Below are positions 9,486 to 45,180 of a stretch of DNA of 64,000 nt, one piece after another. Location: positions 124,001 to 188,000 of the forward strand of contig NMRA01000337.1 in the NCBI GenBank assembly GCA_002633005.1, given 5' to 3'. The first letter of the stretch is position 1. Each line of letters begins with the position of its first letter. A model generated the notes under the pieces. That model was not told where the DNA came from. It searched no databases and worked only from the letters and a program-made list of their open reading frames with translations. The translations under genes were made by a program, and so were the position numbers. The DNA is from Phoronis australis. Lineage: Eukaryota > Animalia > Phoronida.

Positions 9486-9635
9486 ATTTCCCAGTACGAC
9501 GAGATGAGAGCGGTTCCGGCGCTCAGTCGTGTGACATCTTATGTTGAAGGTGATGATGGTGCAAAAAAAGAAGTGGCTGAGAAAGGAACGGAAAAAGACA
9601 AGCTGATTGAGACAGAGACTGCAGAAACTGGGCGG
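9486..9635 (+). CDS. ABCC1: ABCC1-like linker exon ending in conserved LIETETAETGR
   Basis: tgtag|ATT...GGG CGG|gtgagg; ISQYDEMRAVPALSRVTS...KLIETETAETGR; a second in-frame acceptor (exon start 9495) is possible. Confidence 0.85.
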
Positions 9636-11028: not shown

Positions 11029-11242
11029 GTAAAACTTGCAGTGTTTGTTGCCTACCTGAAGGCGGTGGGTATTCCTGTCTCCATTCTCATTATTTGCCTC
11101 TACATTCTCAACAACGCCTGCGCCATTGGAGCCAACGTTTGGCTGAGTGACTGGAGCAATGATGAGCTGGTCAATGGTACAGTTGATGCAGCTCAACGCG
11201 ACATGAGACTTGGGGTTTACACTGCTCTTGGATTTGCTCAAG
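11029..11242 (+). CDS. ABCC1: ABCC1-like exon: TMD2 start (TM12, start of TM13)
   Basis: tacag|GTA...CAA G|gtaggt; VKLAVFVAYLKAVG...GANVWLSDWSND...RLGVYTALGFAQ; phase 0->1. Confidence 0.95.
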
Positions 11243-16900: not shown

Positions 16901-17211
16901 GTTTTCTGGAGGTGTGCAGCTCGTTTACTGTAGCCATGGGAGGATTGCGTGCATCACGCATCCTACACCGAGCACTTGCCGTAAACGTACTGCATTGTGC
17001 TTTGCATTTTTTTGAGGTGACACCTGCTGGACGCCTCATGAATCGGTTTAGCGCTGATGTGTTGGAGATCGACATGGTCGTCCACTTCACCATGCGTTCC
17101 ATGATCAACTGCATTCTGGGATGCATTGCGTCTTTCACAATTGTCGTTGCGACAACGCCCATATGTGCCGCTGTGATACTTCCACTATCCATAATCTACT
17201 CTTTTGTACAG
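16901..17211 (+). CDS. ABCC1: Mutually exclusive TMD2 exon, variant 1
   Basis: ttccag|GT...CAG|gtacac; 311 nt; FFEVTPAGRLMNRFSADVLEID. Confidence 0.9.
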
Positions 17212-17332
17212 GTACACTACATGTGGTGTCACCTTCACCATTCCGCTTTCATCCCAAGATGCTTCAGGGTCTTTTTTTGATTGGCTTCTCAAGCGAACAC
17301 TTAAAATGAATTAAAGATGGTGTTCAATGTTT

Positions 17333-17596
17333 GCGTGTGTGCACCCAGGGGGGCTCGGGGGCTTTGAATGAGCCCCCCCCAAATTGTTGAAGTGGGCAAA
17401 AGGTCCACCCCCGAGAGACAAAAAGTCCAAGAAAATCGGACAAAAGTCCACTAAATAAGTGCAAAGTCGCAACTCACAGAGGTGCTCCCGTTTTTTGTTT
17501 TTTTTTTCTTTAGTCCACCCCCTCTTTTGTTAGCGAATGGTCCACAGCGTCGAGAATTCGAGCCCCCCCCCAAATCGAAGGCTGGGTGCGCGCATG
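17333..17596. mobile_element. MITE, same family as 58015-58222
   Basis: gcacccagggggg...gaaggctgggtgcgcgcatg; shared internal aagtgggcaaaaggtccacc. Confidence 0.75.
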
Positions 17597-18052
17597 GTTA
17601 GTATCTTCAAATCGGCATTTAGCAAAGCTCTTGCAGAACCAGTAACTGACTTTGAACCTGCAAGGAAGACAGGTTCATCATCATTTCTTAATGACACACT
17701 CTTGTACGAGTATTTGAACATCTACTAAATGTGAGAGTGAAGAAAGTTAAACCACTTAACAGTGTTTAGTATTCATTTTTTTGCTTCGTGGAATTTGTTG
17801 GTTTTCAATGTGCACAAATGAGATAACGCTCCTATCATTCCTGCTTTTGTCCAGAGCTTCTCACCAAAAGCACGCTCTCAAGCGATTGGATTTGTGTGCT
17901 CATCTCCCTCATGCTTTTTTTTCTCTGGAACAAGCAAAGCCTTGGTATTTGTTGATGCAGTAATTAGTTGAAAAGGCACCCCGTGTTATAAAAGGCCCCC
18001 CGTGGTCTAAAAGACACCCCGTGGAATAAATGCAAGTGTTCACCAACTTTTA

Positions 18053-18797
18053 GAGAGGTTTCGCAAAGCGACATGAACATGAATTATCACGCATACTTAA
18101 TTACACGTGCTGATTCACATTACAGTAACAAAAATGGGTTTTGCAAAAGCTAAACGATTACGTGAACTTGAAAGTATATGTGAACTAAATAACTGAGTTC
18201 AAGCTGTCCAGTTATTGTAGTTCATACCATATGTACTACGATAACTGGACATCCTGATATTATCTGTTACAGATATGCAAGATAGAAATATATGCTGAAT
18301 GTGAAAAAAGTCGTTTCTATGATCTCCTGTGAAAGATGATCAACTCTTAGAATGCGAAATTTATTTGCAGTTTAAAATGAGTAGATGCAAGTAAATTGAG
18401 CATGTAAAAAGTTTTACTGCACAAAATCAAATCTGTTCAAATCCATTCTAGTTCGATTATATTCAGTGAACCTTGGCAGAATAAGGATTTTGGATAAAGG
18501 CCTTCCTTCAGCTAGACTTCGAGAATATTTATCGACAAAAGAATCGTGTTTGTTTTATACTGAAGCAAAGACGAACTATTGAGAACCTTATTAACATAAA
18601 AATTGTTTCATTGTTATGCCAAATATGAATTAAAAATGGGCCACAGGTTTCACATTTAAAGTGACGTGAATCTCCCTGTATTTGCATAAAATTGCAAACA
18701 CTATCGGGAGTACGTCACAGCCAACAATAACATGTATGACGGGGAATTATATATGCGTGATTATAATAAATGTTAATGTCGCTTTGCGAAACCTCTG
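18053..18797. mobile_element. MITE with about 45-bp imperfect TIRs and TA flanks
   Basis: agaggtttcgcaaagcgacat...tcacgcata / tatgcgtga...atgtcgctttgcgaaacctct. Confidence 0.7.
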
Positions 18798-19108
18798 TAA
18801 TATTGACAATGAAGACATTTGGTAATTGAACAATAAAGTCACTTGGATGTATAACTTCTTCCATTTACATGTGCTTTTTTCAGACTCTTCGTGAATTACC
18901 TGAATGCCGTCTACCCATTAATAACAGTTGAAAAGATAATATTTTTACATTTTTTACTGTTGATATGCTTGCATCTGTGTGTTTCACCATGCGTTTATTA
19001 CTCAATGGACCAGAATCTTCGTCATTTCAGCTTTGCCAACTTGTGTATTGCCTGGTCACATTTGCAACGTAGTGTTTTGACATTGTTTGACATTATGTTT
19101 TATGTCAG

Positions 19109-19419
19109 CCATCCTAGTCACCATTGTGTCCGTGGTAGCTTACCTTGTGATGCTCGATGCCGTGCAGAGCATGCACAGCCAAATGTTCAACAATGTCCTG
19201 CATGCACCCCAGAAGTTCTTTGACGTGACTCCTAGTGGACGCATTTTGAACCGTTTCTCAAAGGACGTCAACATGATGGATGTGATTGTACCGTGGTCTC
19301 TCCGTTCTTGGCTGGAGCTGGCACTCACCACTACCTTCACAGTGGCTGTGATCTGTTTTAGCACGCCCATATTCACAGCGGTTGTTCTGCCCCTTGGTGT
19401 CCTTTACTTTCTGTTGCAG
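19109..19419 (+). CDS. ABCC1: Mutually exclusive TMD2 exon, variant 2
   Basis: gtcag|CC...CAG|gtattg; 311 nt; FFDVTPSGRILNRFSKDVNMMD. Confidence 0.9.
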
Positions 19420-20093
19420 GTATTGTGTCATGTGCGTGTTCCTGCCTGCCTTGTAGCTAGACATTTCAAGATTCATGTTTCGGGTCTGCATAGCATTCTC
19501 CATAATAATGCCTTTCACTGTAATGGCGCTTACTTGCAATAGTTGGTGTCTGTCTCTGTTTGTGCTGCTCTAGTGCCAAACGAGGTCATACAAACTGCTT
19601 CGAGTTAACAGTTTGACTTGTGGTTGGCCCTGCTTCATCCATTTTTCCACATTATGAAAATAACTCTGTATGCTTGCTGTATAATCCTATTTATGAAAGG
19701 GAATTCTTTAACATCTTATATCTGGGTCTTTAGTCTCCATGTGCAAAACTGTGCTCGTCATTGGCAACTGCGAGTGTACTGCACACCTTTGCTCGTTCTT
19801 CTAAGAATGCTGTAACACCTAAATGTGAACTGGCTAATCGTAAAGTCATAGCCATGTTAACAGGCTAGGGGTTGGTGTTTACAAACCATTTGTCTATTTT
19901 GATTCATTTCTTTTCAGGTATATGTTTTTCTTTCCAACCACTTTCTACTTCATAGGTCATTTCTTTTATTTAAGTACTGCTCAGAACTGGTGCAGAAGCA
20001 TCGAAAAAAATGTGTCTGGATTTTCTTTATCGTATGAATCAAGTCTTGGAGAACATTCGTTCACTCGTTTTTCTTTCTTTTCTTACCACCCAG

Positions 20094-20404
20094 CTGTGTT
20101 CTCTTTCCTCGGATCATTTTTTCTTTGGATGGGCACGTTGGGGGCTGCCGGCCACTTGCACCAGCTTCTCTTGTCTCACATTATTCAGTCACCAATGACC
20201 TTCTTCGATACAGTCCCTATTGGTCGGATCATGAACCGCTTCTCCCAAGACATAGTATCACTGGACCAAACTCTGCCACAGATGTTTGGAGCGTTTCTGT
20301 TGACGTTCCTTGCCAGCGTATCCACCGTCCTTGTCGTTGCCATTGGCACACCGCTGTTTGTAGCAGTGCTCCCCATTCTTATGGTTTTATACGTAATAGT
20401 GCAG
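20094..20404 (+). CDS. ABCC1: Mutually exclusive TMD2 exon, variant 3
   Basis: cccag|CT...CAG|gtttga; 311 nt; FFDTVPIGRIMNRFSQDIVSLD. Confidence 0.9.
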
Positions 20405-21045
20405 GTTTGAATTCAACATGTTTTTCAGTGTATAATGTTATGTACTTTTAATTTGTTGTTTTGTTTCCGTTATTTGGTGTTAGTGTGTAATAACTGCATG
20501 TATTTGAAGCAAGAATCCTGCATGTGCATACAAAATGAATGAAGTGCAGTCTTTCACACAAGTACAAAATAAATTAAAAGTAACTTGAACAGCTTCAAGG
20601 ATGAAATTCAAACTTGGAAATATGTGCTCGTCAGACTGACTGGTCACTGAATTGACTATGGTTCTGTTCACTTGATGATATGATGCCACTGTAAACAAAA
20701 GCGATGGTCACAAGGACTTTAGTGTGTCTAAGCAAAATGTTGGAGTAGTTATATATAATTATTTTGTGAATTCAAGGATGATGCCTGACCTGTGAATCTT
20801 GTCCTGTACAGAAAAAATGTCGGGGGAAAATGTCTGCTTAGATTGGTCAGTTAAACTAGTTTGATTGACACATGGCCACTTGTCAATTCCGTTACAGACT
20901 AATTTTCATCCTCAGATGCAAATACAACTGAAAGGGTAAAACATGGGTATAGTGTGAACAAAGTGATCCAAAGTCATGAAACATCAATATCTGAATTGAT
21001 AGATACAGTAATTTCATCGGAAATGTTGATGATATTTTGTTTCAG

Positions 21046-21356
21046 GGGTCATTAGTATGACTGGAGCTGTTTGGGTTAGACTTGGTAGTCTGGTAGCATC
21101 CAAACGTCTGTTTGATCGGCTGCTAGCCAACATCCTCTGTTGCAAGATGCTCTTTTACGATACCAACCCTATTGGCCGCATCGTCAATCGGCTGTCGGAG
21201 GATGTCTTTTGCCTGGATGTGAAATACCAAGTGACGATTGACCAGTTCTTCTCATGCTTGTTTGAGACTTTGGCCGTTTTAGTGGTGGTGATTTATGGAG
21301 TACCGGTGTTTTTGGCTGTAATTCCAGTGTTGTTTTTAGCCTACTTTCTCATTCAG
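21046..21356 (+). CDS. ABCC1: Mutually exclusive TMD2 exon, variant 4
   Basis: ttcag|GG...CAG|gtagac; 311 nt; FYDTNPIGRIVNRLSEDVFCLD. Confidence 0.9.
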
Positions 21357-22052
21357 GTAGACATTAAACCTCCATTGACTATTAGCTTTACACCTAGGAT
21401 CGGTTGCATAAAAGTTATACCAGAACTGTTGTTGTATACCACTATTGCTGTCATAGCGATGAAACATGTGTCAGTGCTGTGCTACTTTAACTCAATCTTG
21501 TTCTATCCTCCCGTCAAATTTTTATAATGGAAACTGCCCACAGACATCACCTGTTGTAGTGATGTGCGTTGGCAGTTTGCTGGGTTTATAATTCTACACC
21601 TAAGTATAGATGTGGATACTTTCAATTTAAGCGAGTGTGCACAAACTTATGTTGTGCACAACACTTCCATTTTTATCACTTTCATTTCCAAGAAGTGTTC
21701 CCAAATTGCACTGATGATGCAGAGTGCCCCCATTGTGTTGGATTCCCCCTCATGAGCCTGGATGTGACACTTTGAATGACACGTATTACAGCCTCTTGTT
21801 TAAAATCATGCTACAACTGAACTCATCCAACGGATAAGCTCTGGAGTTTTATGCACCCGAACCCAGGTCTTGGCAGACGCCGAGTGATAAAGGCACCCCT
21901 CTGCGCATTGCAAGCTTGCTGTACTCCCTAGTCTTTGTTCTTAGGAAACTTCTAAAGCTTGTCCTCTATGTTTTTAAACTTAACTGTCTCCGACATATGT
22001 TCAGTCAGTCTGTGTAAACCTTAGGGATTTTGTAGCCAGCATTGTAAGTAAT

Positions 22053-22262
22053 GCTGCTCAATTTTGGAGGGTCTGCTCACTTTGTGACACCTATTGTAGA
22101 GGGGTGATGAGAGCTCAATTTTGGAGAGTCTTTTCACTTTGTGACACCTATTGTAGAGGGGAGACGAGTGCTCAATTTTGGAGGGCCTTCTCACTTTGTG
22201 ACACGTATTGTAGAGGGGAGACGTGTGCTCAATTTTGGAGGGTGTTTTCGCTTTGTGACACA
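22053..22262. repeat. About 59-bp minisatellite, 3.5 units, plus one dispersed unit near 25811-25865
   Basis: gctcaattttggagggt...cactttgtgacacctattgtagagggg repeated. Confidence 0.9.
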
Positions 22263-22904
22263 TTGTAGTTCGGGGTCAGACTTTGGGCACAACGTGAGTC
22301 AAGTGATACAGTGTTGTGTTTATCATCAAGGCAATAATTGTGGATGTTATTGAGGTTGAATGAGGTTACATGATGGAAAGGCACGTGCCGAAACGACCTT
22401 TTTTACAAGCACTTGTGCAGGCCATTGAAACTAGATCCCAGTGAAATGAAAACCAAAAGCATCTGGTATAACTGTCCTTTCTCAAAGAGTGACATTAACT
22501 TTAAATTTCCTTTCAGAAAAATGGCTTTGTACTAATGGTAAAAAATTTTCAATTTGGTACACATTATGCGGAAATTACATTCAGTGACTGCATCGATTGT
22601 CTTATTGTCAGTAAAAAGCCCGTTAATATTACACTTTGGTCAAATAAATTTTTCATCAACAGGCAAGTTTGTCACTAATTATTCAAACCACAATATTTCT
22701 TCAGTTTTAAAGCCCATATAGTGCAGTTGTGCTGCTTCTTTGTTAAGCTGAAATGAGAATGGGTTACTCTCACTAATTGTCATTTCCTGTTGACCTATAG
22801 AAATGTCCAACAATCAAAACGAAGTATTCCCTTTGTTTGCATTTGATTTGCTTATGCGTGTAACTGTTTTAGAGCTTTCTTAAGAAGACCTTTGAACAGT
22901 TGTG

Positions 22905-24564
22905 TTAAAGGAGAATGCAACCCGATTTAATTAGTCTTTTTTACCGTCTTAATCGGTCTATATATACATTGCCTCTTATACGGTCGACCTCACCTTGCCG
23001 AGAGGTGTCGCGTTAACCTGTGAGGAAGGTGAGAAATGACGCAGCGACGTCAGTGGTTCGTCTGCAGAGGGAATGCCGCTATCTCACGGTGCATTGGTTC
23101 CCGCTTGTCCGAACTATGAAGCTGTTAAGGAAGCAGGTATATCGTTTTTCCGACTTCCTCGAGAGCCCGAAATGCTTAGGAATTGGCTCGTGGTAGTGAA
23201 GAATGAAAGGTACGCTGTTAATAGCAAGTGTGAGGCCGTGAAACGTCTCCGTGCATTTCGTCGACAGTGATTTCTCTGACGAATTCCGGCTTACCAAAGA
23301 ACTATCCATAAGTTCCGTTGCCTGTGCATGTTCACGGCGCCTCTCTAGTATTTCTTGATCAGTGTATTCGAATTGATAGCTGTGAAACCTACAGATCCGA
23401 TCAGTGAAGTCTTCGTCAGATGACCTCTTGACTAACTAAGTCGGGATTGGCGCCGGGCGAGTTGCCATGTAGACGTTTATTATTCTGCGTTCTGTTTCAA
23501 AATGAATTATTCTCATCCTAACCAATGCTTATATAAAACTGAATCAAAGTCTGTCTCATTAGATACAATTTGTAATGCGTTTGCAGTATTTGTGAGTGCA
23601 AATTTTGAGAAGCCAGCAATGAATAAACCACGGCGTTAATTACCGGGTTTTGATGCCGACAATGACCGGACACCGAGGTCGTGTGAGCGCATGTTAATTC
23701 AGTGTTTGCTGACAGAAAGCTGTTGTGAAACAATTACTCGATTTTATATCTATGGTCACATGTTAGGGGAATCTTTATTCATAAATACACTAAATACATT
23801 GTTCAAATCATTAGTTACTTTACAACCTTTGCCCTGACGGTCTGTGGAAGGGGAACCCGACTTTGCGGCAACCGACAATTAGTAAGTAGGCCTAAATTTT
23901 CAGTTTCGTGGCTAATTCCCATTATTTCTTTGGCTCACTATTACAGTCTTTCTGTCGGTTTAGTTTTCAATTCAAGCTGGTTATTTTCGTGCCAGTCCGG
24001 CGGCCACGACGGGCCTGATGGGGTTCCGAGCCACTGGCCAGGATAATGAGTCCAGCCGCGACGGGCCTGATCGAGTTCTGAGCCCTGGTCGGGATAACAA
24101 GCGTTTTGTGTCTTTAGAACTCAAAAGTCATAAGTCTAAACAACACAATTCTGGGTTCTCCTGTCTCTATTTCACGGAAGAATACTTCGAATTTATCTCC
24201 GAACAGACTCCAAACTATGCACCTTGGTAAATTGGCCTGCCGAACTTCGTAGGCTACGGTGTGTCCAAATAAAAATAAATCCGTAACAGCTAAGTTAAAC
24301 ACATTTTTATAAGAACTCTGTGTTTTTTAAGGGTTTTACATCGAAGTTCGATTATTTTTTGGTGTTAAACGATGAATTCAAGCGAAAAACTGACACCAGT
24401 AACCTATGTTGTGAACTGCGGTGAAGACTGCGCGTGAAACCAATTACGTCATTGGATAATTTCAACACCTCCGTCTGCCGCAACCGAACGTGCCGTTATC
24501 GAGTAGAACTACTCGATTCAATTGATAGAAAATGGGTTGTTTTTTGGGTGGCATACTCCTTTAA
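22905..24564 (+). mobile_element. Non-autonomous Kolobok-like DNA transposon with THAP remnant
   Basis: TTAA|AGGAGAATGC...GCATACTCCT|TTAA; THAP-like VPACPN..ISFFRLP..W..(VCGRHF in the sister copy). Confidence 0.8.
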
Positions 24565-25505
24565 CTTGTCTATAACAAAAGTTCCACATGCAAGTAAAGA
24601 ATGTTTTCAATCATAGCTAGCTGGATAAGAGTCTGCTATGCACAAGATTCAAGAGTAAACAATAATCAGTGTATTTAAAAACAAAATGGCAAACTGAACA
24701 ACCACATACATACAAAGGAACAACGTTGTTAAAAACAATTATAATTTTCCCATAATCATGGATATGAAGGGCTGACTTTCTGAACTGAGAGGGTCAGTTG
24801 TCTCTGGTTATTGCTGCTTTGTGCTTTGTTCAAAGGTAAAATAGATGGTAAGGCGGTTGGTTTCAGTCATTTTCTCTCACCTGTAACAGAAATATTAGTA
24901 AATTATAAAAGAAAACACAAGGCAAAACTACTTTTGTAAGGCAGAATATACTTGACATTTCATCTTCATGTTTATTTGTAGAAACTAATAATCTTTGTAC
25001 CCAAGCCTTATTTCAGTTCTGAATTAAGATATGTGAAACATGCGGAAAGTGATTTAAGAATGTGTATTTTTTCATGACACCTAAAATGTCTTTCTGATCT
25101 CAACAAATAAAATTCATTCTAGGTGTCAATATTTATTCCAATGTAATGTTGCGAATTTACTGAATACGTCATTCATGTTAAGTCTGTAACCACTAGTCAC
25201 TGGGGTGGGGTCTGTTATAAAGTAAGGAAACCCATTCATCTAGCCGAGAGAATTTTATTGGACATAGCATAGTTTTGAAGAGTAACTGCTGTGAAAAAGT
25301 TACCCTTGACTTCCGAGCGGCACGTTCCATAACCTCTTATATTGGGAGCCCTCCCACCAGGACAATATGTGCTGCTACAGTGCTAGCCTATCATCCAGAT
25401 CCCGGGTGCGTTTTTTAAAAGAAACACTTAGTTCCATTGAGTTAACCCGTTATTCAGTGGGGATAACATCACTGAACAATGTCGATAGAAACTGATTGCT
25501 AAAAA

Positions 25506-25812
25506 CTTACCAAGTAACGTGATCATGTAGTCTCTCAATGGAAATGCATAGAGCACATACGGGTCATGAGGTTTCGGCATCCTTACACTTTTTTGATTGC
25601 AATTCTACACACCTTAGGTCTTTTGAGATTTTGTGACCGCCTGTCAAAGGTTTGCTCTTTGGGAAATAGCAATAATAAGGCTGAGTGCGATGACGTATTA
25701 CGATAATATTTCCGTCTTTTTACTAGCTGTTTACATGCAGACAGCGACACATGCACAATTCAATCACCATTAGTACAACAGCAACACCATGAGGCGAATT
25801 CGTCAAATAGCT
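25506..25812 (-). mobile_element. THAP-remnant repeat, second family; copy of 58617-58955
   Basis: shared tgtagtctc.caatggaaatgcatagagcaca...gggaaatagcaataataaggct; minus-strand RVCSMHF motif in the sister copy. Confidence 0.6.
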
Positions 25813-27540
25813 CCATTTTGGAGGTCTTTTCACTTTGTGACACCTATTGTAGAGGGGAGATGAGTTTTACAGATTTGTGGTAATATGTTGTAATAAAACT
25901 ATTTCTATGGATTCCGTCAATATACAGGAAAAATCACCATCTCGCGTGTTTCAAAGTTACAAATGTGACCCTTAATTTCTGGGAAAATGTAATTTGTCAT
26001 TGCAAAATTCTGGAATTTTTACCATTGACTAAAACTTTACCAGCATAAGCTCACGGTGTAGCTTTGTGGAATAATCAGTAGGTTGGTAGTCAAGAACAAT
26101 CTGTAGACACAGCAGTATCAGTCTTGGTTTGTGTTCATAAACCAACTGCATCCATCAACTAGCTAATCACAAGCCATACATATGTACTGCTTAAGACCTC
26201 TGAAGGAAAGTCATTCACAACCATCTTGTTTTTTATTCATTCGACATTTTTCATTTGTTCATGTTAGTTGGAATTGTAGTATCTTAACAGAAAAATTTCC
26301 TTGAGACGAGTTTTGTTGAACCCGGCATTCCATGGCCTTAATAGATACACAGTCAAACTGGTGGCAGACTGATCTAGTGTCGGGCATCAGTCAATGTAAA
26401 AGATGACTCAGAGTCATCGCAGTTTTAGCTGGAGTAAATCTTGTTCGTGGCAGTGGATTTTTATTGAAGCGATCTCACGGCTATTCTGTTTATGGTGTTT
26501 TCATGTTTATTTGGGAACCATAACTTTCCAAATAATAGTTGGAGAATATTAGACATCCAGCCGATAAATATCAGCAAAAAAAATAAAGTTAATTCTGGGC
26601 TTAATTATGGGTGACATTGTGTCTTCATCACCAGGACTTTTACTAGCAATTGCCGTGGTAGTGTTAGGCTGATGACATAATCAGCGCGGAATCAGGATGC
26701 AAAATCGCTCAGTTAAAATGTAAGTCAAGTATTAGTTTTAATTTTTTTGCTGATTTCTATATTATAGATTCAAAAAAGAAGTTTCACCCCAAAACGTGAA
26801 CCAACATTCAGGCTTGGCTATTTAAAGTCCATTTAGGATAATAAAACAATCATCTTTTCAGCCAATACCTCAACCTTAATTTTTAAACTGTGTTTACTTA
26901 CACAGTCCAACTGAGGCAGTTGTGTGACTAAAAGCAGGATTCACAAAAACTAAACTAACTTATACTGAGCCTGCATGTTACTTTCAGAAGGCCTGTTGTG
27001 TGTGAACAACACCCATGACTTAACAAGGGTCCGGAAATTCTAAGCCACTATGCAGACTAGTTGCCCATGTGAAATACTGGTTTTCATAAATGGTGATGCA
27101 CGGACCTTAAATATGGTTATGAAAGTGTGATACTTTTTCGAAGACTAAAAAGTAACATAAGACATTAAAAGACCTAACATCCAATATGTTTCATTTACTA
27201 ATGACACAATTTTGACTTTCCATTGCAGAATTCCATGGTAGCAGCGAGAAGCAAAAATTGGAAGTGTTAAATTTTTGCATTGTATCTTCACAAAAGAATA
27301 GCAAATAAAATTATTAAAGGATTATCTCACATGTACCCTGTAAATAATTGCAAATCATAAGTAGCATTGGCTCTCTATTGAGCAGAGGCTCATAACAGTA
27401 CTGTAGGGATAAGTTTGTCCACTTATGCTCGCCATGTTTTTTCTCAAAGGAAGGAAAAATGTCACCTGTTTTTGATTCCTGGAACAACAATTGCAGCCAC
27501 ACCTAGTGAGACTGGTATCTTTTTGTTGGTGTTTTTGCAG

Positions 27541-27851
27541 GTCTGTCGGCTTTCCTGGGCTCACTCCTTCTTAACTTCGGTGTTCTTCTTGCTGCCCGCA
27601 TTTTACATTACAAAATGCTTTGTAACATCCTCTCAGCACCCTCATCCTTCTTTGATGTTACACCGATTGGACGACTTGTGAATCGGTTTGCCAAGGATGT
27701 GGACACAATGGACACAATACTGTGTGAACTCTGGAAAGCTGTTTTAAGAACGTTTTTCACCAACGTGGGCACGGTCATGGTGATCTGTGCCAGCACTCCA
27801 CTCTTTCTTGCCGTTTTTATCCCCCTCGCTCTTTTCTTTGGTTGTGTGCAG
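27541..27851 (+). CDS. ABCC1: Mutually exclusive TMD2 exon, variant 5
   Basis: tgcag|GT...CAG|gtacag; 311 nt; FFDVTPIGRLVNRFAKDVDTMD. Confidence 0.9.
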
Positions 27852-28244
27852 GTACAGATATCTTCATTGTAGTTTGTATGAGACACTGTTTCCATCTGCC
27901 TGTGTACGTGTGCGATATATACAAAGCCATGGGCAGTGTGTATTTTATTGTTTCTTATTGCCTTCAAATAAATTTTAGTGTTTTTCTCCCAAATATTTCA
28001 TGGCATCATGAAACCATGATTTTGCTGTGAAAATAATTATATTCATTTGAAGAAATGCCCAGAAAGCCAAAAAGTATGCTGTGAAAATTGGTGCTAAGTG
28101 ACATCAAAACTTGGCTAACGGAAATATACACTGCACACAGCTTCAGTCTGTTAGTGTGTAGCACTAGAGCACATTTCATTTTTGTAGACTTTAGTTTGCA
28201 TTAAGTTTCCATCCCATCTTATCGTTTTGGGTATTGGTGTCATC

Positions 28245-28288
28245 TCTGTGTGTGTGTGTGTGTGTATGTGTGCGTGTACGTGTGTGTG
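28245..28288. repeat. (TG)n microsatellite between variants 5 and 6
   Basis: tgtgtgtg... run. Confidence 0.85.
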
Positions 28289-28548
28289 ATTCTTTTCAAA
28301 CAATTCTCTATATCATCAGACATTGTGAAACCCCTATGTTTTTAGTAAGATGAATTTTCTGTTTTTATGACAACCTGCAACCTGGCTTAGAATAATGTTT
28401 TTACTTTGCGTTATGTGGAGTGTCGAATAATTGGCTTCTTCCCTTATTTTAGGTTCTACTGGTGTCTCCATCATACTTTCCTAAACTTTGCTTGATGGGT
28501 TTGTTTAAGTGTTAGTACGGCATACAGTATTCGCCTTTCCTGTTGTAG

Positions 28549-28859
28549 GCGTAACTACGGTTTTCCAGACACTCTTAATATTTGTTTCGGGGCTGGCTGC
28601 TGCCTTTGCATTACATCAGTCCTTGCTGACACGTGTCCAGCGTTGGCCCTTGGGACAGTTTGAGCAGAACCCAACAGGAAGGTTGCTGAATCGATTTGGC
28701 TCCGACATTGAGATTCTTGACACTCAGCTTCCTCAGAAGATCTTGGCATTACTGGTCGTATTATTCCGCGTGGTGGGCACAGTATTGGTCATCTGCTTCT
28801 CGACGCCATTGTTCATTCTTGCCATGATTCCTTTGTTCATTCTTTATTTCTTCATTCAG
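28549..28859 (+). CDS. ABCC1: Mutually exclusive TMD2 exon, variant 6
   Basis: tgtag|GC...CAG|gtttgt; 311 nt; QFEQNPTGRLLNRFGSDIEILD. Confidence 0.9.
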
Positions 28860-29072
28860 GTTTGTCATAATTTCGCTGTTGTGCAGTCTGGTCTTCTTAT
28901 CCTCATAGTGTTCTTCACACTTGGCTATCTGTCATTATGTTTGCATGGCTCATTACTAATTATTCGTTGAGAATTAATTCAGGCCAGGGGGATATGTGTG
29001 CACCAAACTCTTGATCTGTCAATCATTCCTATACATTACACGCAACCAATTTTGGCAAAGCCGCAACATCAC

Positions 29073-30712
29073 TTAAAGGAGAATGCCACCTAAAAACAAC
29101 CTGTTTTGTATCAATTTAGATTGAGTAGTTGTTCTCGATAACGGCAGGTTCGGATGCGTTACCTGATTGCAACTGGAGGTGTTGAAATTATCCAATGACG
29201 TCATTGGTTTCACACACAGTCTGTTCAGCAGTTCACAAAAATGGTTAGTGGTGTCAGCTTATCGCTTGAATTCATCGTTTAACACCAATGAATCATCAAA
29301 CTTCTATGTAAAACCCTTAAAAATACACCGAGTACTTATAAAAACGTGATTTTTTTATTTCGCTGTTACGGATTTATTGGTATTTGGACACACCGTAGCC
29401 TACAAAGTTCGACAGGCCAATTTACCAAGGTTCGTAGCAGGAGTTTGGGGTTTGTTCGAAGATAAATTTGAAGTATTCTTCCTTGAAATACAGACAGGAA
29501 AACCTAGGTCTGTGTTGTTTATACTAGTGATTTTTTTGAGTTCTAAACACACAAAACGCTCGTTATCCTGGCCAGTGGCTCGGAACCCGCCAGATCAGGC
29601 CCGTCGCAGCCAGACTGAGTCGTTATCCCAGCCAGTGGTTCGGAACTCGATCGGGCCCGTCGCGGAAATGCTAATAGTAAGCCAAAGAAATAATGTGCAC
29701 ATAATTATTTATGTGAATTAGCCTGTGACGAAACTGAAAATCTACTTATTTGTCGGGGGCCGCGAAGTTGGGTTCCCCTTCTACAGATCGTCAGGGCAAA
29801 GGTTGTATAGTAACAGTGATTTGAATAATGTATTTGTATTTTTAAATAAAGATTCCCCTTACATGTGACAATAACATATAAAATTGAGTAATTGTTTCAC
29901 AACAGCTTTCTGTCAGCAAACACTGAATTAGCATGCGCTCACGCAGCCTCGGTGCCCGGTCAGTTACCTTTGTTGCCAGCATCAAAAGCCGGTAACGCTG
30001 TGGTTTATTCATTGCTGGCTTCTCAAAACATTTGCACTCACAAGCACTCTAAGGCATTACAAATTGTATCTAATGAGACAGACTTTGTTTCAGTTTCATA
30101 TAAGCTGCATTGGTAAGGATCATTTTAGGAGGAGAATAATTCATTTTGAAACAGAACGCAGAATAATAGACGTCTACATTGCAACTCACCTGCGCCAATC
30201 CTGACTTAGTCAAGAGCTCATCCGACGAAGACTTCACAGATGTATCATTAGGATACACAGGCTATTAGTTAGAACGGGAATACACTGATAGGCAATACTA
30301 GAGAGGCGCCGTGAGCATGCACACGCAACGGAACGTATGGATAGTTCTTTGGTAAGCCCGAATTCGTCAGAGAAATCACTGTCGATAAAATGCCGGCCAC
30401 AGACATAGAGATGTTTCACGTCCTCATACTTGCTATTAACAGCATACCTTTCTTCACTACCGCGAGTCACTTCCTAAGCATTACGGGCTCTCGAGGAAGT
30501 CGAAAAAACGATATACCCACTTTCTTCGCAGATTCATAGTTCGGACAAGCGGGAACCGATGCACCGCAGATGAACCATTGACGTCGCTCACCTTCCTCAC
30601 AGGTTACATGACACCTCTCGGCAAGGTGAGGTCGACCATATAAGAGGCGATGGATACAGACCGATTAAGACGGTATAAAAGACGAATTAAATTGGGTGGC
30701 ATTCTCCTTTAT
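29073..30712 (-). mobile_element. Kolobok-like element, inverted copy of 22905-24564
   Basis: reverse-complement similarity along the length; same TIRs; mirrored pseudo-ORFs (MFHNSFLSANTEL, FGHTVAY.VRQANLPR). Confidence 0.85.
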
Positions 30713-34017: not shown

Positions 34018-34359
<342 letters not shown>

Positions 34360-35388: not shown

Positions 35389-35577
<189 letters not shown>

Positions 35578-36050: not shown

Positions 36051-36167
<117 letters not shown>

Positions 36168-36831: not shown

Positions 36832-36978
36832 GCTGAGTGGATTATCCCAAGCAACAGGCCTAAGCCCGAGTGGCCTGAGCAAGGAAACATCCAGTTTGAC
36901 AATTATGGCGTGCGGTACCGTGAAGGCCTTGACCTGGTGTTGAAGGGTATCACTGCGCAAGTGGCGGGAGGTGAAAAG
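36832..36978 (+). CDS. ABCC1: ABCC1-like exon, NBD2 start
   Basis: ttcag|GCT...AAG|gttcgt; AEWIIPSNRPKPEWPEQGNIQFDNYGVRYREGLDLVLKGI; 147 nt. Confidence 0.95.
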
Positions 36979-36989
36979 GTTCGTTCAAT

Positions 36990-39900
36990 ACTGGTCAAAC
37001 TCCTGCAGTAAAACTGCCCCTAAACCATCATTTGACGCGTTTGTTCTGGCGATGAATATCTGAGTGAAGTCAGGCACTCGTATGATCGGGGTGCTTCCAA
37101 GCGCATGCTTTAGCTTCTTGAATACCTGTTCACGACTTTCTTTGGCTGGCCCATCTTCAGTAAATCTGTCAACGGCGTGGCTATTTGTGCATAGTTAGGC
37201 ACAAACTTTCGGTAGTCCTAGGAATGACTGTACTACCGTTTTAGTAGATGGCGTTGGTGCATCCTGGATCTTCATCAGCTGCTGGTCTTCCATAGCTATC
37301 TTGTTCATCCCAACCTGATATCCAACAATCTCCACCTCTGGATGTCCAATGCTGCACTTTGACGGTCTTACTGTCAAGCCTGCTTGTTTTACTCTCTGAA
37401 ACAAGTCTCTCAGTGTACGGATATGTTCCTCCCAGTTTACAGTGTGGAGTAGCACATCGTCGACATACTGCTCGATATTATCTGAGCCTGCTTGCATTCT
37501 TCTCATCATCCTGTTGAACGTGGCCGCTGAAATCACCAAGCCAAACGGTATTCTGCAGAACTGGTAACAGCCTCCTGGAGTCACAAATGCGGTTTTCTCT
37601 TTACTATCCTCGTCCATGGGAATTTGCCAGTAGCCCTTCGTAAAGTCGAACTTCGAGAAGAAACACTGACCGTGCCCTGTCACCATAATAGCTTCTGGGT
37701 TACCCATGGGCTCGTTGTCAAATTTGGTCACTGCATTCAGCCGTCGATAGTCAACACAGAACCTTGTGGTGCCATCTTTTTTAGCCACCAACACTACAGG
37801 AGAGCTGTAAGCTGAAGTGGAAGGCTCAATGATGGTCATCTTTAACATCTCCTGCACTTCCTTCTTCACTAGGTTTTGAGTAGTGTGCGGCATCTGACGC
37901 GGTCTCACTTTCACAGGTTGTTCTGTTGTCAACTCGATGACGTGGCTGGCCAAATTGGTCTCTCCAGGCTGATTGGTAAAGATGCCACGGTAATCATAAG
38001 CTGTAGTGCCTGTTCACGTTGTTCCGACGTCAAGGAATCGCATAGCTTAACGTCCTTGTAGGTTTCACTGTGAACCTCCGGTCGAAGCTCTAAACCGCCT
38101 TCATCAAGAAGGGTCACTTCATCAGTCACACACTCCTCAATCAACACCGCACCGATCGCTTCATCTTTATCTGCGATGTTGTCAGCTTCACATTCTAATA
38201 CGCCTTCAACAGATTCTGTAGTCTATACGATTGACTTTTTCTGTAACCTCGTAAGGCCCCTTCTACTGCAGAGTAAGCTTGTTGTGGTCTGTGGGAAGTA
38301 ATACCAGCACACTTTGTCCCTTTTGAAACTGCGTCTGGCCTTCTTGTTGTAGTAATGCTTGTGAATACCTTGTGCATTGTACAAACTTTTTCTAGCCAAC
38401 TCGCAGGTCTCCTCTAAGCAGTTCCTAAGCTCGAAGACATACTGGTAAGTATTTCGGACTTCGTTGCTGTCTTCCCCTGTCCAGAGTTAGCTCAGAATTT
38501 GCATTGGACCTGTTAATGTCCTACATAGCGATTCAAAGGGTGAAAATCCTGTGCTTGATTGCGGGACTTCCCGGTAAGCAAACAGGACTGCTGGCAGATA
38601 CTGGTCCCAATCCTTTGGTCTTTCTTGACACATCTTCTTCAGCATGGGTTTTAATACACCGTTGATTCTTTCACAGAGCCCGTTGCAGCGTGGATTGTAA
38701 GGGGTCGTATACAGCTGCTGTGCACTCACAAGCCTGCTGACCTCCTTCATCAGTTCCACTGTGAACTGCGTTCCACGATCACTCAGGATCTTTTGCGGGA
38801 ACCCTACTTTACTGAAGACTTCTAATAATGCTTCAGCCACACATTCTGTCTCAATCTTCGGTAGCGCCACTGCTTCCGGGTATCTGTTAGTGAAATCTAC
38901 CCGTGAGAATATATGTTTTCCTTGTCGGAAACTGGAGCTATTGGGCCAATCAGATCGATCGCAATCCCTTTGAAGGGCTCCTCCATCAAAGGCATCTCTC
39001 CCAGGGATACCTTGGTCACTCGACCTTTCAGGATTGTCTTCTAGCAGATTTCACATGATATGCGGAATCTGATCACTTCTGGTGCCGCTCCTGGCCAATA
39101 GAAATTGTTGGTGATCGGGCCAGTTGTCTTTCTAACACCGAGGTGTCCACCGAGTATAGACTCATGAGCAAGCTTCATCACGGACTTCCATAAACTGCTC
39201 GGCACGACAACTTGTTTCACCTCGTCACCGCCTTTCTTCCTTGAATATCCGATAGAGTATTCCTTTCTGAATTTAAATCACGTATGACCCCTTGCCTTTG
39301 GTCTGTCGCTGAACCTTGGCTTCAGCTTGCTCCCACAGCTTCTTCATTGATTAATCTTCATGCTGGGCTTCTTTGAGCTGTTTTACTCCCACCTCTTGTA
39401 TGGTCAGAGATACAGGTAACGGTTTAATGTCCACTTTTTGTCGCTCTGCGTGAGCCCTGGTAGTCACTGCTACCGCTTCCCTGCTGGATTCATCAGGATA
39501 TGTTCTTACCGACATATCGGCCACCTCCTCTCCCTCTAGAGTTGAGGTCACTGGGTTCTTCTCTTTGGAAGTAGCACCCTTCTGAGAGTCGTCTTTGGGA
39601 CCCTCCACAAGGCCATTGCCTGTGCCATCTGCTGTCGCTCAACATCCCCTGGGTCTAAGGCGCCAGGTACGTCCCCGATAATTAAATCGGCCACTGGACG
39701 CTCCATACACATCGCAAACACTTCTCCTGTGTTGTACGGTGTCTTGATGTTGATCTTGACGAGAGGCAGCCATCTCTTGGTAGAGTCTGCCAACTCGCAT
39801 GACCACTTCTGGCAGGTCATATCTCCTGGTTTGACTAGACTGGATTGAACCACAATGGATCTGCAGCCTGTGTCTCTCAACACTGAGACCTTCTTTGTGC

Positions 39901-40900
39901 CAACATACCTCTCCTTCAGACGCAGCTTTCCTTCAGGGTTTTTGCGCTTCACTGACCTCTCCTTATTCTGGGAACCTCGGTGGTTGATCGCTGCTGACTT
40001 TTGGTGTTTCTTCCCCGGTGTCCGCTTCCGACAGTCTCTAGTCAGGTGTCCAGTTTTGTGACAGAAAAAAGCACCTTTCCTCTACGAGGTCAGTTCTGGT
40101 CGACTCTCTGATTGTCTGTCTTGACTGGTCGTTCTTGGGACTTTTTCAACTGAGTGCTGGTTATATCCACTCCGTGGGCCTCGATATACCTCTGTTAAAC
40201 CCACCATCTCTGGAACAGTCTTGGGTGTCCGCTCTCGCAGGAACAAGGCCAAGTCCAAGTACAGGTATTCAGGTACTGCTTACGCACTAACAGGTCTCTC
40301 AACTCAACAAAGTCCTTGCCACAGGCAGACATATCGATCCACCTGTCTAGGTAACGCTATATGCGGGCCACAAACTGATAAGCTGTCTCACCCCTCTCAG
40401 CCCTCGCATCCCGTTACTGTTTGTAAAAGCCCTCCTCCGTCAGCTCATACCGCTTCAGTAAGGCTCTCTTGAGTGTGGCATAGTCCAGTGCATCAGCCGT
40501 TGGCAGGCTGGTATAAACCTGCAGGCCCTTACCTGTTAACAGCGGACTGAGACTAATTGCCCATTCACTCTGGGTCCAGACCTGGCTATCTGTGTATCTT
40601 TCAAACCTTTCCAGGAAGTTGTTCATGTCATCCTGCTTTTCATCAAACTTGGGTAACTTCGGCTTTACGCCACCAGTTGGTCTAACATGGCTACCCTCTG
40701 CTACAACATGTTCAGCTTTAAGTGCTGCTTGCGCCCTCTCGTGTTCCATTCTTTCTCTCTCCATCAGCTGTTCAGCTTCCCGGACTTGCCTCCTCTCCTC
40801 GGCCTCTCACGCTCTCTCTTCAGCTTCACGAGCTTGCCTTCTCTCCTCCGCCTCAGCTTCTCACGCTTGCCTTCTCTCCTCCGCCTTAGCTTCAGCAAAA
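36990..40900 (-). mobile_element. Degenerate Gmr1-like gypsy retrotransposon (gag-PR-IN-RT-RH), LTRs not found
   Basis: minus-strand gag (LPKFDE..LTGKG..DYATLKRALL; C..CHKTGHLTRDC), protease RDTG, integrase (SDRGTQF..YNPRCNGLCER), RT (RFCVDYRRLN..YVDD), RNase H (TNASNDGLGAVLLQ); many stops. Confidence 0.88.
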
Positions 40901-41443
40901 AACACTCGTTGATTCCACCTGGAACGTCGTTTAGCGACAGTGTATTTGTCTCTGACATTGTTTGTTTGTCAGGTGTCACGTGACTTTTCAGAAGGGGGCA
41001 GAACTTGCGATAGGTCAATGTGAAGAGGAAGTCTGACGACGATTTTCCAGCGACTTCATCTACTCTGGTGCCTCTTAGTGGCAGTGATGTTTTTTGCACC
41101 TATAGCCTCTTAGTGGCAATTTCATTTTTTTTATTTTCCTTGGTTTCCCAGAAGTTCCTTGATGGATTTTTATGAAATTTGGTAAATAGCTTTGATGACA
41201 CATACCAGTTTTCAGATGGATTTGACGTATTTTGTGTCATCTAGTGGCCAATTTTATGTTCCAAATAAACACCCCTAGAAGCACACCATTTGTGGTGCAT
41301 TCGTGGACGCATTTCAATGCTCTGCGTTGCTCATTATCTCTTTTATTGCTTCTATTACCAGTACTATTATTTTGTGATTATTAATTACCTACTTAATATT
41401 AATGTATTATAAGTATTGAATATATTATCTTCTTTCTGGGTAG

Positions 41444-41614
<171 letters not shown>

Positions 41615-41667
41615 TAGTTTTGTGTAAATGTTGTTGCAAGTTAAGACCTTAAAGTAAAGTTCAGGTT

Positions 41668-41850
41668 TAAGTATTAATTAATTGTTCCTTATTTAAGTAT
41701 TAATTAATTGTTCCTTATTTAGTATTAATTAATAGTTCTTTATTTTTTTAGTATTAATTAATAGTTCTTTATTTTTTAAGTATTAATTAATTGTTCCTTG
41801 TTTTTAAGTATTAATTAATTGTTCCTTATTTAAGTATTATTTAATTTTCC
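41668..41850. repeat. About 27-bp AT-rich minisatellite
   Basis: taagtattaattaattgttccttatt, about 6 units. Confidence 0.85.
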
Positions 41851-42286
41851 TCATTTCCAAGTCAAAAATCAATTCAGAATAAGGAATGCGAGAGGAGATC
41901 AATGTTAGTGTGTTGTATTTTCAAGTATTTTTGTTTTGACCTCATGGGGTTCTTTAAAAAAGACTATTTTACTAACTGAACACTTCTAATTTATCTCTCT
42001 CTTTCTATTGATATTTTTGCAGTGTTATCAGACAAATTATAGCCAAAAGGGGTTTTTGCTAAAACAGACTGATTAAAATTGTGAGCATTCTGAGTTTTAG
42101 ATTTTTTATTGTTAGGATTTAGTAGACAAATACCTTTGGCTATAATTTTATTTTTTACTTCTCAACAGCTATGCTTCCACAGATTTTGTGCAAAAATAAA
42201 TTTATCACAGATTACTGAAATAATTAAACTTAAGTTTTTACCGACTCCTTAATCTTTTCATTTTTCGTTCCTCTGTTGTCACTTAA

Positions 42287-42490
<204 letters not shown>

Positions 42491-42718
42491 TGAGATTGAA
42501 TGCTGCTAAGCAGCGTAGAATTGAGTTTGTGCTATACACTATTGTAGACTACAGTTCTGTAGTTTCTGTTTCACACATTGCTGTGAGGAAGAGTTTTATG
42601 ATTTTAACATGTAAAGTAAAAGATTTTTTATATTTGACATAGATGTTGCTCCTTGCTTGTTTAAATTTTATGTTGCATTAATGTACAGGAACAGCATTAA
42701 AATCATCTGTTCTGTTTT

Positions 42719-44345
42719 TATAGGAGCATGCCACCCAAAAAACAACCTAATTTGTATAAATTTAGATGGAGTAGTTCTACTCCATAACGACACGTACGGT
42801 TGTGTTACCTGACACCTGATGGCAGACAGAGGTGTTGAACTTTTCCAATGACGTCATTGGTTTCACACGCAGTCTGTTCAGCAGTTCACAACACGGGTTA
42901 CTGGTGTTAGATTATCGCCTGAAGTCATCGTTTAACACCAATAAATCATCAAACTTCAATGTAAAACCCTTAAAAATACACCGAGTTCTTATAAAAACGT
43001 GTTGTTTTATTTCGCTGTTGAGGATTTACTGGTATTTGGACACACCGTAGCCTACAAAGTTCGGCAGGCCAATAAGGTCCGTAGCAGGAGTTTGGGGTGT
43101 GTTCGGACGGGAGATAATTTCGAAGGATTTTCCGTGAGATACAGGAGAACCTAGATCTGTGTTGTTTATACTTGTGATTTTTTGAGTTCTAAACACAAAA
43201 CGCTTGTTATCCTGGCCAGTGGCTCGGAGCCCGATCAGGCCCGTCGCAGCCGGCCGGATTCATCCCGGCCAGTGGCTCGGAAACTCGGATCAGACTTCAC
43301 GAACATAAACCGCCCAACGTTCTGTGGAAATTAAACTTCCAGTCAAGAAAATACATGACTAGTGAGCCAAAGCAATGTGCACGTGATTATGTTCGTGAAT
43401 TAGCCACGAAACTGCAAATCTACTTACTCGTCGGGGGCCGCGAATTCAGGTTCCGCTTTGGCCACAGCACCGTCAGGGCAGAAGTTGTACATTGACAATC
43501 ATTGAGTAATGTAAATGTAAATAAAGATTACCATAACACCTGGCCGTGGGCATGAGCTCACACGGCCTCGGTGTCCCGTCAATTAGTTTTATTGCACCTA
43601 AAGCCGGTAACGCAGTGATTTATTCATTGCTGGCTACTCAAATCATTTGCTCTCACGAAAACTCCAAAGGCATTACAAATTGCATCTAATGAGACAGACT
43701 TTGTTTCAGTTTTATATAAGTATTGGTTAGTGAGAATAATTCATTTTGAAACAGAACGCTCAGTAATAAACGCCAACACTATGGCAACTCGCAATCCGGA
43801 CTTAGGACGAGCTAGAGCTCATCAGTCCCAACTTCGCAGGTAGATCGTTAAGTTTTACAGGCTATCAAATCGAACAGGAATACAGTGATGAAGAAATACT
43901 AGAGAGGCGACGTGAACAAGCTAAGACAACGGAACGTATGGAGTTATTTGGTAAGCCGGCATTCGTGAGGCACTGTCGACGTCGCAGGCCTCAGACACGG
44001 AGATGTCTCACGGCCTCATACTTGCTATATTCAGCGTACATTTCATTCTTCACTACCATGAGCCACTTCCTAAGCATTTTGGACTCTGGAGGACATAAAA
44101 AAAAAACAATATACCCGCTTTCCTCGTAGCTGCTTAGTTCGGACAAGCGGGAACGATGCACCGCAACATAGCAGCATTCACTCTGCATATGAACCACTGA
44201 CGTCGCTAGCGTCGTTTCTCACCTTCCTCACAGGTTAACGCGTAACCTCTTGGCAAGGTAAGGTCGACCCTATGCGAGGCGATGTGGATATAGACCGATT
44301 AAGACGGCAAAAAGAATAATTAAATCGGGTGACATTCTCCTTTAA
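42719..44345 (-). mobile_element. Kolobok-like element, third full-length copy
   Basis: taggagcatgccacccaaaaaac...gacattctcctttaa; colinear with 29073-30712; THAP remnant CCYVA..FFLCP..W. Confidence 0.85.
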
Positions 44346-44435
44346 TCTTTGTCAAAAAATTGTGATGAGTTTTCTGTGTGCAAAGGCCTTCACCAATGTT
44401 CGTCTAAACATTTTACTGTTGGTCAGCAAATTTAA

Positions 44436-44705
<270 letters not shown>

Positions 44706-45033
44706 TGATATGAATACCACTGCCCATTGTATCAATTCAATATTGGATAATACTAAAAATATTTCTTTAGTACTTATCTTTGTCATCAGCATTGTATCAG
44801 TACAAGATTTTTTAAAAGCATACCATCTCCCATGGTATCAATACAATTTTGGATTACACCAAGAATGCTGCCTCATGTGCTATCTATTCTATAACTCTTC
44901 TTATACACATCATCATCTATCAGGGAATAGTAGTGTATTAAGAATTGAATACGCTCTACAATGGTTTAATATTGAGTAAATAAATATTCTTGTTGGATTA
45001 TAATATACTCCACATCCGTATATTATTCAGTAA

Positions 45034-45180
<147 letters not shown>

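What the first reader, a model, noticed from the sequence alone, without database searches (positions are those of the whole stretch)
16901..28859. Six-way mutually exclusive exon array that swaps TM13-TM15 of an MRP1/ABCC1 exporter
Seen: six homologous exons (16901, 19109, 20094, 21046, 27541, 28549) lie between two single-copy exons (11029-11242 and 34159-34358). Each is exactly 311 nt, AG/GT-bounded, phase 1->0 and stop-free. They share F(F/Y)(D/E)xxPxGRxxNR(F/L)xxD but are otherwise very divergent. Because 311 is not a multiple of 3, including 0, 2, 3, 5 or 6 copies shifts the frame. All other exons in the window are single-copy, so this is exon duplication, not gene duplication. Inference: one gene makes six pumps with different cavities, and the conserved length and frame despite divergence imply selection on all six. 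Known context, from memory: mutually exclusive exon clusters are described in Drosophila MRP (exons 4 and 8, different TM segments), and tandem exon duplication in MRP1 is reported in several invertebrate phyla. The principle is not new, but this array may be unannotated, since gene predictors often keep one copy.
Basis: partly seen in the sequence, partly recalled or inferred. Interest (0 to 1): 0.92.

Follow-up and report, generated by a model that had tools for sequence, protein, structure and literature searches.

The report
Six swappable pocket exons in MRP1
An invertebrate drug-export pump gene (MRP1) carries six intact copies of one exon, RNA reads show at least three of them spliced to the same next exon, and the gene likely makes up to six pumps predicted to differ in their cargo pocket; this is a known arrangement, though the first copy is probably an old version shared with a snail.

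Summary
Real, but a new member of a known kind. Six 311-nt AG/GT exons are confirmed; of 64 subsets, only the 6 single-copy ones keep an open frame. RNA reads join copies 2, 4 and 6 to the common downstream exon (7, 5, 5 reads); no copy-to-copy joint was listed; copies 1, 3, 5 and all upstream joints are unshown. Silent sites are saturated while all copies are intact, so all six were under selection. The exon equals human MRP1 1028-1130 and holds four pocket residues that differ between copies; different cargo is inferred. No RNA docking switch was found. Most novel lead: copy 1 belongs to an old exon lineage shared with a gastropod (bootstrap 60, SH-aLRT 88-96). The scan noted the same array on other DNA (e1-8148101).

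The parts
825..1017 (+). Single-copy exon, end of NBD1 (ends read from AG/GT, not RNA-verified)
9501..9635 (+). Single-copy linker exon before TMD2 (start approximate)
11029..11242 (+). Common upstream exon U (TM12 and start of TM13), ends in phase 1
   Evidence: joints from it not seen (15 of 93 rows shown)
16901..17211 (+). Array copy E1; member of an old exon lineage shared with a gastropod isoform and with first copies of related arrays; splicing not shown
19109..19419 (+). Array copy E2; spliced to 34159 in RNA
   Evidence: 4+2+1 reads in 3 of 3 runs
20094..20404 (+). Array copy E3; intact, splicing not shown
21046..21356 (+). Array copy E4 (longest branch); spliced to 34159 in RNA
   Evidence: 1+0+4 reads in 2 of 3 runs
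27541..27851 (+). Array copy E5; intact, splicing not shown
28549..28859 (+). Array copy E6; spliced to 34159 in RNA
   Evidence: 1+3+1 reads in 3 of 3 runs
34159..34358 (+). Common downstream exon D (human MRP1 1131-1196)
35430..35556 (+). Single-copy exon after D; its start matches the loose ends of 30 reads behind D
36051..36152 (+). Single-copy exon with TM17 pocket residues W1246, R1249, M1250 kept (Y1243 is Ile)
36832..45177 (+). Five further single-copy exons to the C-terminus (about 36832-36978, 41444-41602, 42323-42489, 44456-44650, 45066-45177; ends approximate), NBD2
22905..24564 (.). Repeat element in the E4-E5 intron, inverted against its copy at 29073-30711 (79% identical); the pair brackets E5 and E6
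29073..30711 (.). Inverted copy of the same repeat in the E6-D intron

Best explanation
This MRP1/ABCC1-like gene holds six intact copies of one 311-nt exon; reads show copies 2, 4 and 6 each spliced straight to the common next exon, so the gene likely includes one copy per message and would make up to six pumps predicted to differ in the hydrophobic half of the cargo pocket. Shown: anatomy, frame rule, three downstream joints, saturation of silent sites. Inferred: use of copies 1, 3 and 5; exclusivity at the upstream joint; different cargo. How one copy is chosen (inferred, about 0.5): every copy has a weak intron-side donor, so each is skipped by default and one is picked by competition or splicing factors; messages with none or several copies all meet a premature stop and would be cleared by nonsense-mediated decay. 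The glutathione pocket, TM17 and both ATP domains stay constant, and the swapped piece changes the TM14 face (human positions 1089, 1093, 1097, 1100) while keeping the coupling loop.
For: Anatomy and no seventh copy. 6 of 64 subsets open, all single-copy. 3 of the 5 joints listed on 16500-34500 are GT..AG joints from the E2, E4 and E6 donors to 34159 (7, 5, 5 reads, sense strand, 3 runs of one study, 18-19% of each read); none is copy-to-copy. Fourfold sites 75 of 274 identical (27%; chance about 26%) against 62% at codon position 2, and simulated neutral decay leaves at most 2% of copies intact at 0.1 changes per site with indels. Column conservation in the six tracks the family (Spearman 0.70). 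Exon = human MRP1 1028-1130; bovine Q1088, M1092, S1096, N1099 contact vincristine, estrone sulfate or cyclic dinucleotide (PMC12647609, passages); the six have F/W/Q/V/E/Q, S/S/A/Q/A/A, C/L/T/C/T/V, G/T/A/E/T/R there. The same exon is swapped in RefSeq isoforms of Liolophura and Gigantopelta and repeated 2-7 times in 4 of 12 related loci scanned. Donor match at +3..+6: 1.2 of 4 for the six against 3.2 for 9 single-copy exons, p = 0.0007. Introns 641-6184 nt, all GT-AG, rule out steric and U12 mechanisms.
Against: No joint listed for E1, E3, E5 (listing needs 3 reads from 2 starts; depth only 1-7). No upstream joint among the 15 of 93 rows shown, so an E2-to-D read does not by itself prove that E1 was skipped. 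3 of 4 read variants inside the copies change the residue (too few to weigh). TM14 divergence among copies is the family norm, so there is no sign of extra diversifying selection. E1089A had little effect on vincristine export in human ABCC1. The weak-donor contrast is not clear in L005, whose single-copy donors are also weak (some ends guessed). E1 and E4 match only 66-69% of 29 conserved columns, below the family's 10th percentile.
Confidence: 0.85

Rival explanations
1. The array is mutually exclusive, but the choice is made by competing RNA pairings (a docking site in the downstream intron and a selector behind each copy), as reported for insect MRP1.
For: PMC6071210 (section 1 and passages) reports downstream docking sites for insect MRP1 and multiple stems in hymenopteran MRP. 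Two inter-intron helices exceed their 5-10 shuffles modestly (35.9 vs 31.1; 33.9 vs 29.5) among 21 intron pairs. An inverted 1.7-kb repeat pair brackets E5-E6.
Against: In four docker/selector layouts no joint score beat all 12 shuffles (best: 1 of 12 reached it; 16 statistics). No 10- or 11-mer is shared by 3 or more flanks. No intron match between the window and 12 related loci. Short, bulged pairings would be missed without close relatives.
Confidence: 0.35
2. Only some copies (2, 4, 6) work; copies 1, 3 and 5 are silent relics or very recently dead.
For: No joints listed for E1, E3, E5; depth over E5 is at intron level (0-1.5).
Against: All three keep frame, length and splice sites though silent sites are saturated; E1 has intact counterparts in distant lineages, one in an annotated isoform; three runs of one study at low depth.
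Confidence: 0.12
3. The copies are used in turn but are functionally near-equivalent; divergence reflects the loose constraint of this segment, or tunes rate, stability or trafficking rather than cargo.
For: TM14 identity among copies (16%) equals that of equally distant family pairs (17-20%); pocket positions vary widely across the family; only 4 of the pocket residues named lie in the exon.
Against: Six redundant copies would not be expected to survive to silent-site saturation; E1-type copies keep TM14 at 53% across lineages against 25% family-wide (partly circular, since the type was first seen in that helix).
Confidence: 0.2
4. Assembly artefact or remnants of tandem gene duplicates.
For: The window has one N flanked by a 900-bp 98.8% duplicate, probably an assembly seam, at 4136-5934.
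Against: Copies are only 39-52% identical in DNA; all other exons are single; spliced reads span 5-15 kb across the array.
Confidence: 0.01

Closest known systems
Insect MRP/dMRP (CG6214) second mutually exclusive cluster ('exon 8', name recalled; 8 exons in Drosophila per PMC4588896, passages)
   Same: Same gene family, same upstream junction, same TM13-end/coupling-loop/TM14 segment; 6 variants in 9 Anopheles stephensi and 9 in 18 Musca isoforms retrieved.
   Different: The insect exon covers about 74 residues, this one 103 (adds TM15). Insect copies form their own group in the tree. Insects also have a first cluster in TMD1, outside this window. A docking site is reported for insects; none found here.
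Metazoan MRP1 tandem exon arrays (Yue et al. 2017, RNA Biol 14:1399, PMC5711460; not held; known through PMC6071210 and from recall)
   Same: Tandem homologous exons of equal length in MRP1, one used at a time.
   Different: The citing paper summarises it as independent duplications in different phyla; here one copy (E1) groups with a gastropod exon rather than with its five neighbours. Whether the paper or its supplements list this exon, this species or this shared copy could not be checked.
RefSeq MRP1-like isoforms of Liolophura sinensis (XP_064611716, XP_064611727) and Gigantopelta aegis (XP_041363038, XP_041363039)
   Same: Isoforms differ over exactly this exon (989-1087; 1062-1163); host genes 69-74% identical over constitutive exons.
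   Different: Two variants seen in each among the 3 members listed; six here. No copy has a relative above about 50% identity over its length.
C. elegans mrp-1 exons 13A-D (PMC4165533, passages)
   Same: Four homologous mutually exclusive exons in an MRP gene.
   Different: 156 nt (3n), so no frame filter; position in the protein not checked.
Human/bovine ABCC1 (PDB 8vt4, 9j9f, 9lg6)
   Same: Best structural-sequence match of the constitutive exons (95 bits against 74 for ABCC3 and 72 for ABCC2).
   Different: One version of the segment; the array copy E5 and the chiton segment score slightly higher against ABCC3/ABCC2.

Membership tests
Mutually exclusive tandem exon cluster | Homologous exons of equal length and phase between two common exons | tested here: met
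Mutually exclusive tandem exon cluster | More than one copy is spliced to the common flanking exon | tested here: met
   3 of 6 donors joined to 34159, 17 reads
Mutually exclusive tandem exon cluster | Only one copy per mature message | tested here: inconclusive
   No copy-to-copy joint among 5 listed, all 57 multi-copy sets stop; low depth, upstream joints unseen, no long reads
Mutually exclusive tandem exon cluster | All six copies are used | tested here: inconclusive
   E1, E3, E5 have no listed joint; intact under saturation
MRP1/ABCC1-like long ABCC exporters | Constitutive TMD2/NBD2 exons closest to MRP1, with TM17 W1246 and R1249 | tested here: met
MRP1/ABCC1-like long ABCC exporters | TMD0, lasso and TMD1 glutathione pocket (K332, H335, Y440) | not testable with these tools
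   5' part of the gene lies outside the window; no genome held
MRP1/ABCC1-like long ABCC exporters | ATP-driven export of glutathione conjugates and drugs | not testable with these tools
   needs transport assay
Docker/selector (competing RNA pairing) clusters | One intron site complementary to a selector beside each copy, above chance | tested here: inconclusive
   No score beat all shuffles; test blind to short bulged pairings
Docker/selector (competing RNA pairing) clusters | Pairings conserved with compensatory changes in related species | not testable with these tools
   No relative close enough for intron alignment
Steric-hindrance or U2/U12-incompatibility clusters | Very short intron between copies, or mixed U2/U12 splice sites | tested here: not met
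   Introns 641-6184 nt, all GT-AG, no U12-type donor
NMD-filtered clusters | Zero or multiple inclusion gives a premature stop | tested here: met
   58 of 58 non-single subsets stop; decay itself not tested
Lineage-specific (independently arisen) MRP1 array | All copies of one species form one clade | tested here: not met
   AU test p = 0.0104 against one clade of the six, 45 rows x 103 columns, long branches present

The most novel reading that the evidence does not exclude
The array is not an invention of this lineage: copy 1 is an ancient, specialised pocket exon, fixed as the first slot of the cluster and kept with a conserved TM14 since before this animal's lineage split from gastropods (possibly before the lophotrochozoan phyla split), which would mean one ancestral two-state MRP1 switch with a dedicated, still unknown cargo, later expanded to 2-7 copies, against the view that these arrays arose separately in each phylum.
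Probability: 0.55. Interest if true: 0.55.

Novelty: new member of a known kind. Interest (0 to 1): 0.38.

Why it matters
As it stands: one more invertebrate MRP1 array, with direct read support for three of six copies, at a segment already swapped in insects and molluscs. Its use is practical: six natural variants of one pocket wall on an otherwise identical pump are a ready panel for asking what TM14 contributes to MRP1 specificity, and single-isoform annotations of such genes miss most of them. If the old, shared first copy holds up, it dates the switch to the early history of lophotrochozoans and points to a conserved cargo worth finding.

Tried and rejected
No genome is held for the window, so the 5' part of the gene and orthologous dN/dS could not be examined. 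The run search listed no indexed RNA holder; three raw runs and one contig set came by species label. First read lay at 90% likeness was swamped by repeats: 0 exon joints in the 15 of 93 rows shown; the contig set X4 was left out of the second lay. Docker/selector searches gave nothing above shuffles (5-12 shuffles for helices, 100 for k-mers). Extra diversification of TM14 was tested and rejected. No close orthologue of any copy: best full-length identities 43-52% among 420 proteins. The phylum of the host was not resolved: two trees leave it in an open fork with annelid and mollusc genes. Possible links E2-L006 copy 6 and E6-P0405 had unstable support (99/90 and 96/88; 86/93 and 93/83) and are not claimed. 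Yue et al. 2017 could not be read under DOI, PMC id or PubMed id. Paper searches for the mollusc/annelid array or an ancestral copy found nothing to the point, in a library that lacks the key paper, so absence from print is not shown. The protein atlas did not answer. No structure or complex was predicted; pocket positions rest on gap-free alignment to human MRP1. 51 of 63 loci were not examined (weak, partial matches).
Full report
Observation. The six exons are as described: 311 nt, AG/GT-bounded, 103 open codons from the third base, between a 214-nt exon ending in phase 1 and a 200-nt exon starting in phase 0. They align without gaps at 26-43% protein and 39-52% DNA identity, and profile searches of all six frames and of the DNA find no seventh copy. 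Every other exon of the gene, from the end of NBD1 at 825 to the C-terminus at about 45177, has one footprint among 130 homologues and no self-match. Joining every subset in silico, 6 of 64 are open, exactly the single-copy ones; the second copy in any chain is read out of frame and stops within 3-138 nt, so even four-copy sets die. PMC6071210 (section 1) says decay cannot police clusters of more than three exons; here it could.

Expression. Three raw stranded RNA runs of one study carry the same species label. At 98% likeness on 16500-34500, five joints were listed: three GT..AG joints from the donors of E2 (4+2+1 reads), E4 (1+0+4) and E6 (1+3+1) to 34159, and two repeat-derived strand switches. 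E2-to-D skips four copies and E4-to-D two. No copy-to-copy joint and none from E1, E3 or E5 was listed, but listing needs three reads from two starts, depth was 1-7, and only 18-19% of each run was read. Thirty reads run from D into the next exon. The lay that covered the upstream exon was swamped by repeats (15 of 93 rows shown, none an exon joint). So alternative use is shown for three copies at the downstream side; strict exclusivity and use of the other three are inferred.

Selection. Fourfold-degenerate sites are 27% identical between copies (75 of 274; chance about 26%) while second positions are 62% identical; in simulation a neutral copy survives intact in at most 2% of runs at 0.1 changes per site with indels, and 1-2% at 0.4 without indels. 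Conservation across the six follows that of 225 family segments (Spearman 0.70). Against this, 3 of 4 read variants in the copies are non-synonymous, and E1 and E4 deviate more from the family consensus than 90% of family segments; E4 is nonetheless spliced.

What the exon builds. It maps without gaps to human MRP1 1028-1130, D to 1131-1196: the end of TM13, the coupling loop, TM14 and TM15 (limits of TM13 and TM15 recalled). In bovine ABCC1 structures Q1088, M1092, S1096 and N1099 (human +1) contact vincristine, estrone sulfate and a cyclic dinucleotide in the plastic pocket; M1093A alters drug susceptibility, E1089A has little effect (PMC12647609, passages). The six copies differ at all four positions and keep D1084; W1246, R1249 and M1250 lie in a constant exon. 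Different cargo is therefore plausible but untested. A control removes one tempting argument: TM14 is the least conserved part among the six (16%), but it is equally so (17-20%) among family pairs at the same distance.

How one copy is chosen. Steric and U12 mechanisms are excluded. Competing pairings were sought as ungapped helices between all 21 intron pairs, as a shared docker in four layouts and as shared words; none stood clear of shuffles, apart from repeat-derived pairings. The one positive trait is donor strength: the six match the +3..+6 consensus at 1.2 of 4 against 3.2 for nine single-copy exons (p = 0.0007; six of those nine exon ends are read from sequence only), and 13 array donors in related loci average 1.6; but single-copy donors of L005 are weak too. 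I commit, at about even odds, to weak competing donors with factor-guided choice and decay of errors; hidden RNA pairings remain the main rival. An inverted 1.7-kb repeat pair around E5-E6 may bias their use (untested).

Relatives. The host gene is an MRP1-like gene nearest to chiton, Owenia, Pinctada and Capitella proteins (72-74% over about 530 residues), phylum unresolved. RefSeq isoforms of Liolophura and Gigantopelta differ over this exact exon. A scan of metagenome contigs gave 63 loci; of 12 examined, four hold arrays of the same AG/GT-bounded 311-nt exon: L001, L002, L005 (two each) and L006 (seven). Drosophila MRP (2 and 8 exons; PMC4588896, passages) and C. elegans mrp-1 (four; PMC4165533, passages) are published; Yue et al. 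2017 surveyed such arrays across phyla, read here only through PMC6071210. Its text and supplements may already contain this cluster. PMC9013439 and PMC4691838 were searched by term only and added nothing.

The most novel lead. The six copies are rejected as one clade (AU p = 0.0104; long branches present). E1 shares rare residues most with the Gigantopelta X1 exon (z = 5.8, first of 225), and a short TM14 signature occurs in 4 of 425 proteins. Nine rows of this type (E1, Gigantopelta X1, P0376, P0394, one copy each of L001, L002, L005, L006, L007) fall on one side of a branch in 5 of 5 trees, also with the signature columns dropped: bootstrap 60 and SH-aLRT 95 in the careful tree, SH-aLRT 91, 96, 92, 88 in four quick trees, two of them without the long rows E4 and L006 copy 2. 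The type is the first copy after the upstream exon in the window, L005, L006 and L007, first of two in L002, second of two in L001. The host genes of these loci are separate deep branches. Support is moderate, the group was suggested by the first tree, convergence among fast copies is possible, and L003, an intronless insect-side gene, shares part of the signature.

Verdict. Observation confirmed; mutually exclusive array very likely (0.85); a new member of a known kind; interest 0.38. The ancient shared first copy (0.55) would raise it to about 0.55.

Noticed in passing
window 22905-24564 / 29073-30711 / 42718-44345; fragment 14183-14297: A ~1.7-kb repeat family, abundant in RNA reads; the first two copies are inverted and bracket E5 and E6, so they could pair in the pre-mRNA.
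   Followed up: partly
window 12029-12057 / 16574-16602: Perfect 29-bp inverted repeat inside the intron before E1, spanning most of it; one arm lies in a 29-bp tandem repeat. Could be transposon debris or a loop that brings U near E1.
   Followed up: no
window 4136-5033 / 5035-5934: 900-bp direct duplicate (98.8%) on both sides of the window's single N: probably an assembly seam.
   Followed up: no
window 37198-40081 and 52948-55374, - strand: Decayed LTR-retroelement pieces: reverse transcriptase (PF00078) and integrase (PF00665) matches; the first lies in an intron of the gene.
   Followed up: partly
window 48102-49061, + strand: 320-codon stop-free stretch that looks like the tail of a non-LTR element by eye; no Pfam match.
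   Followed up: partly
P0278 (KAG7275222.1, Coryphaenoides rupestris), residues about 998-1200: A fish ABCC gene model chains two divergent copies of this same exon segment: a possible tandem duplication of the exon in a vertebrate.
   Followed up: no
P0187/P0199/P0244 and P0172/P0190 (cluster of Dysidea avara MRP1-like): Several exon-sized versions of the segment share the same longest-contig length: arrays or tandem genes may exist in sponge-like animals.
   Followed up: no
L006 5457-11686: Compact seven-copy array of the same exon, incomplete at the contig end; its upstream exon is 70% identical to the window's, the closest seen.
   Followed up: partly
window 36051-36152: Constant TM17 exon has Ile at human Y1243, a residue whose mutation nearly abolishes vincristine export in human ABCC1.
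   Followed up: no
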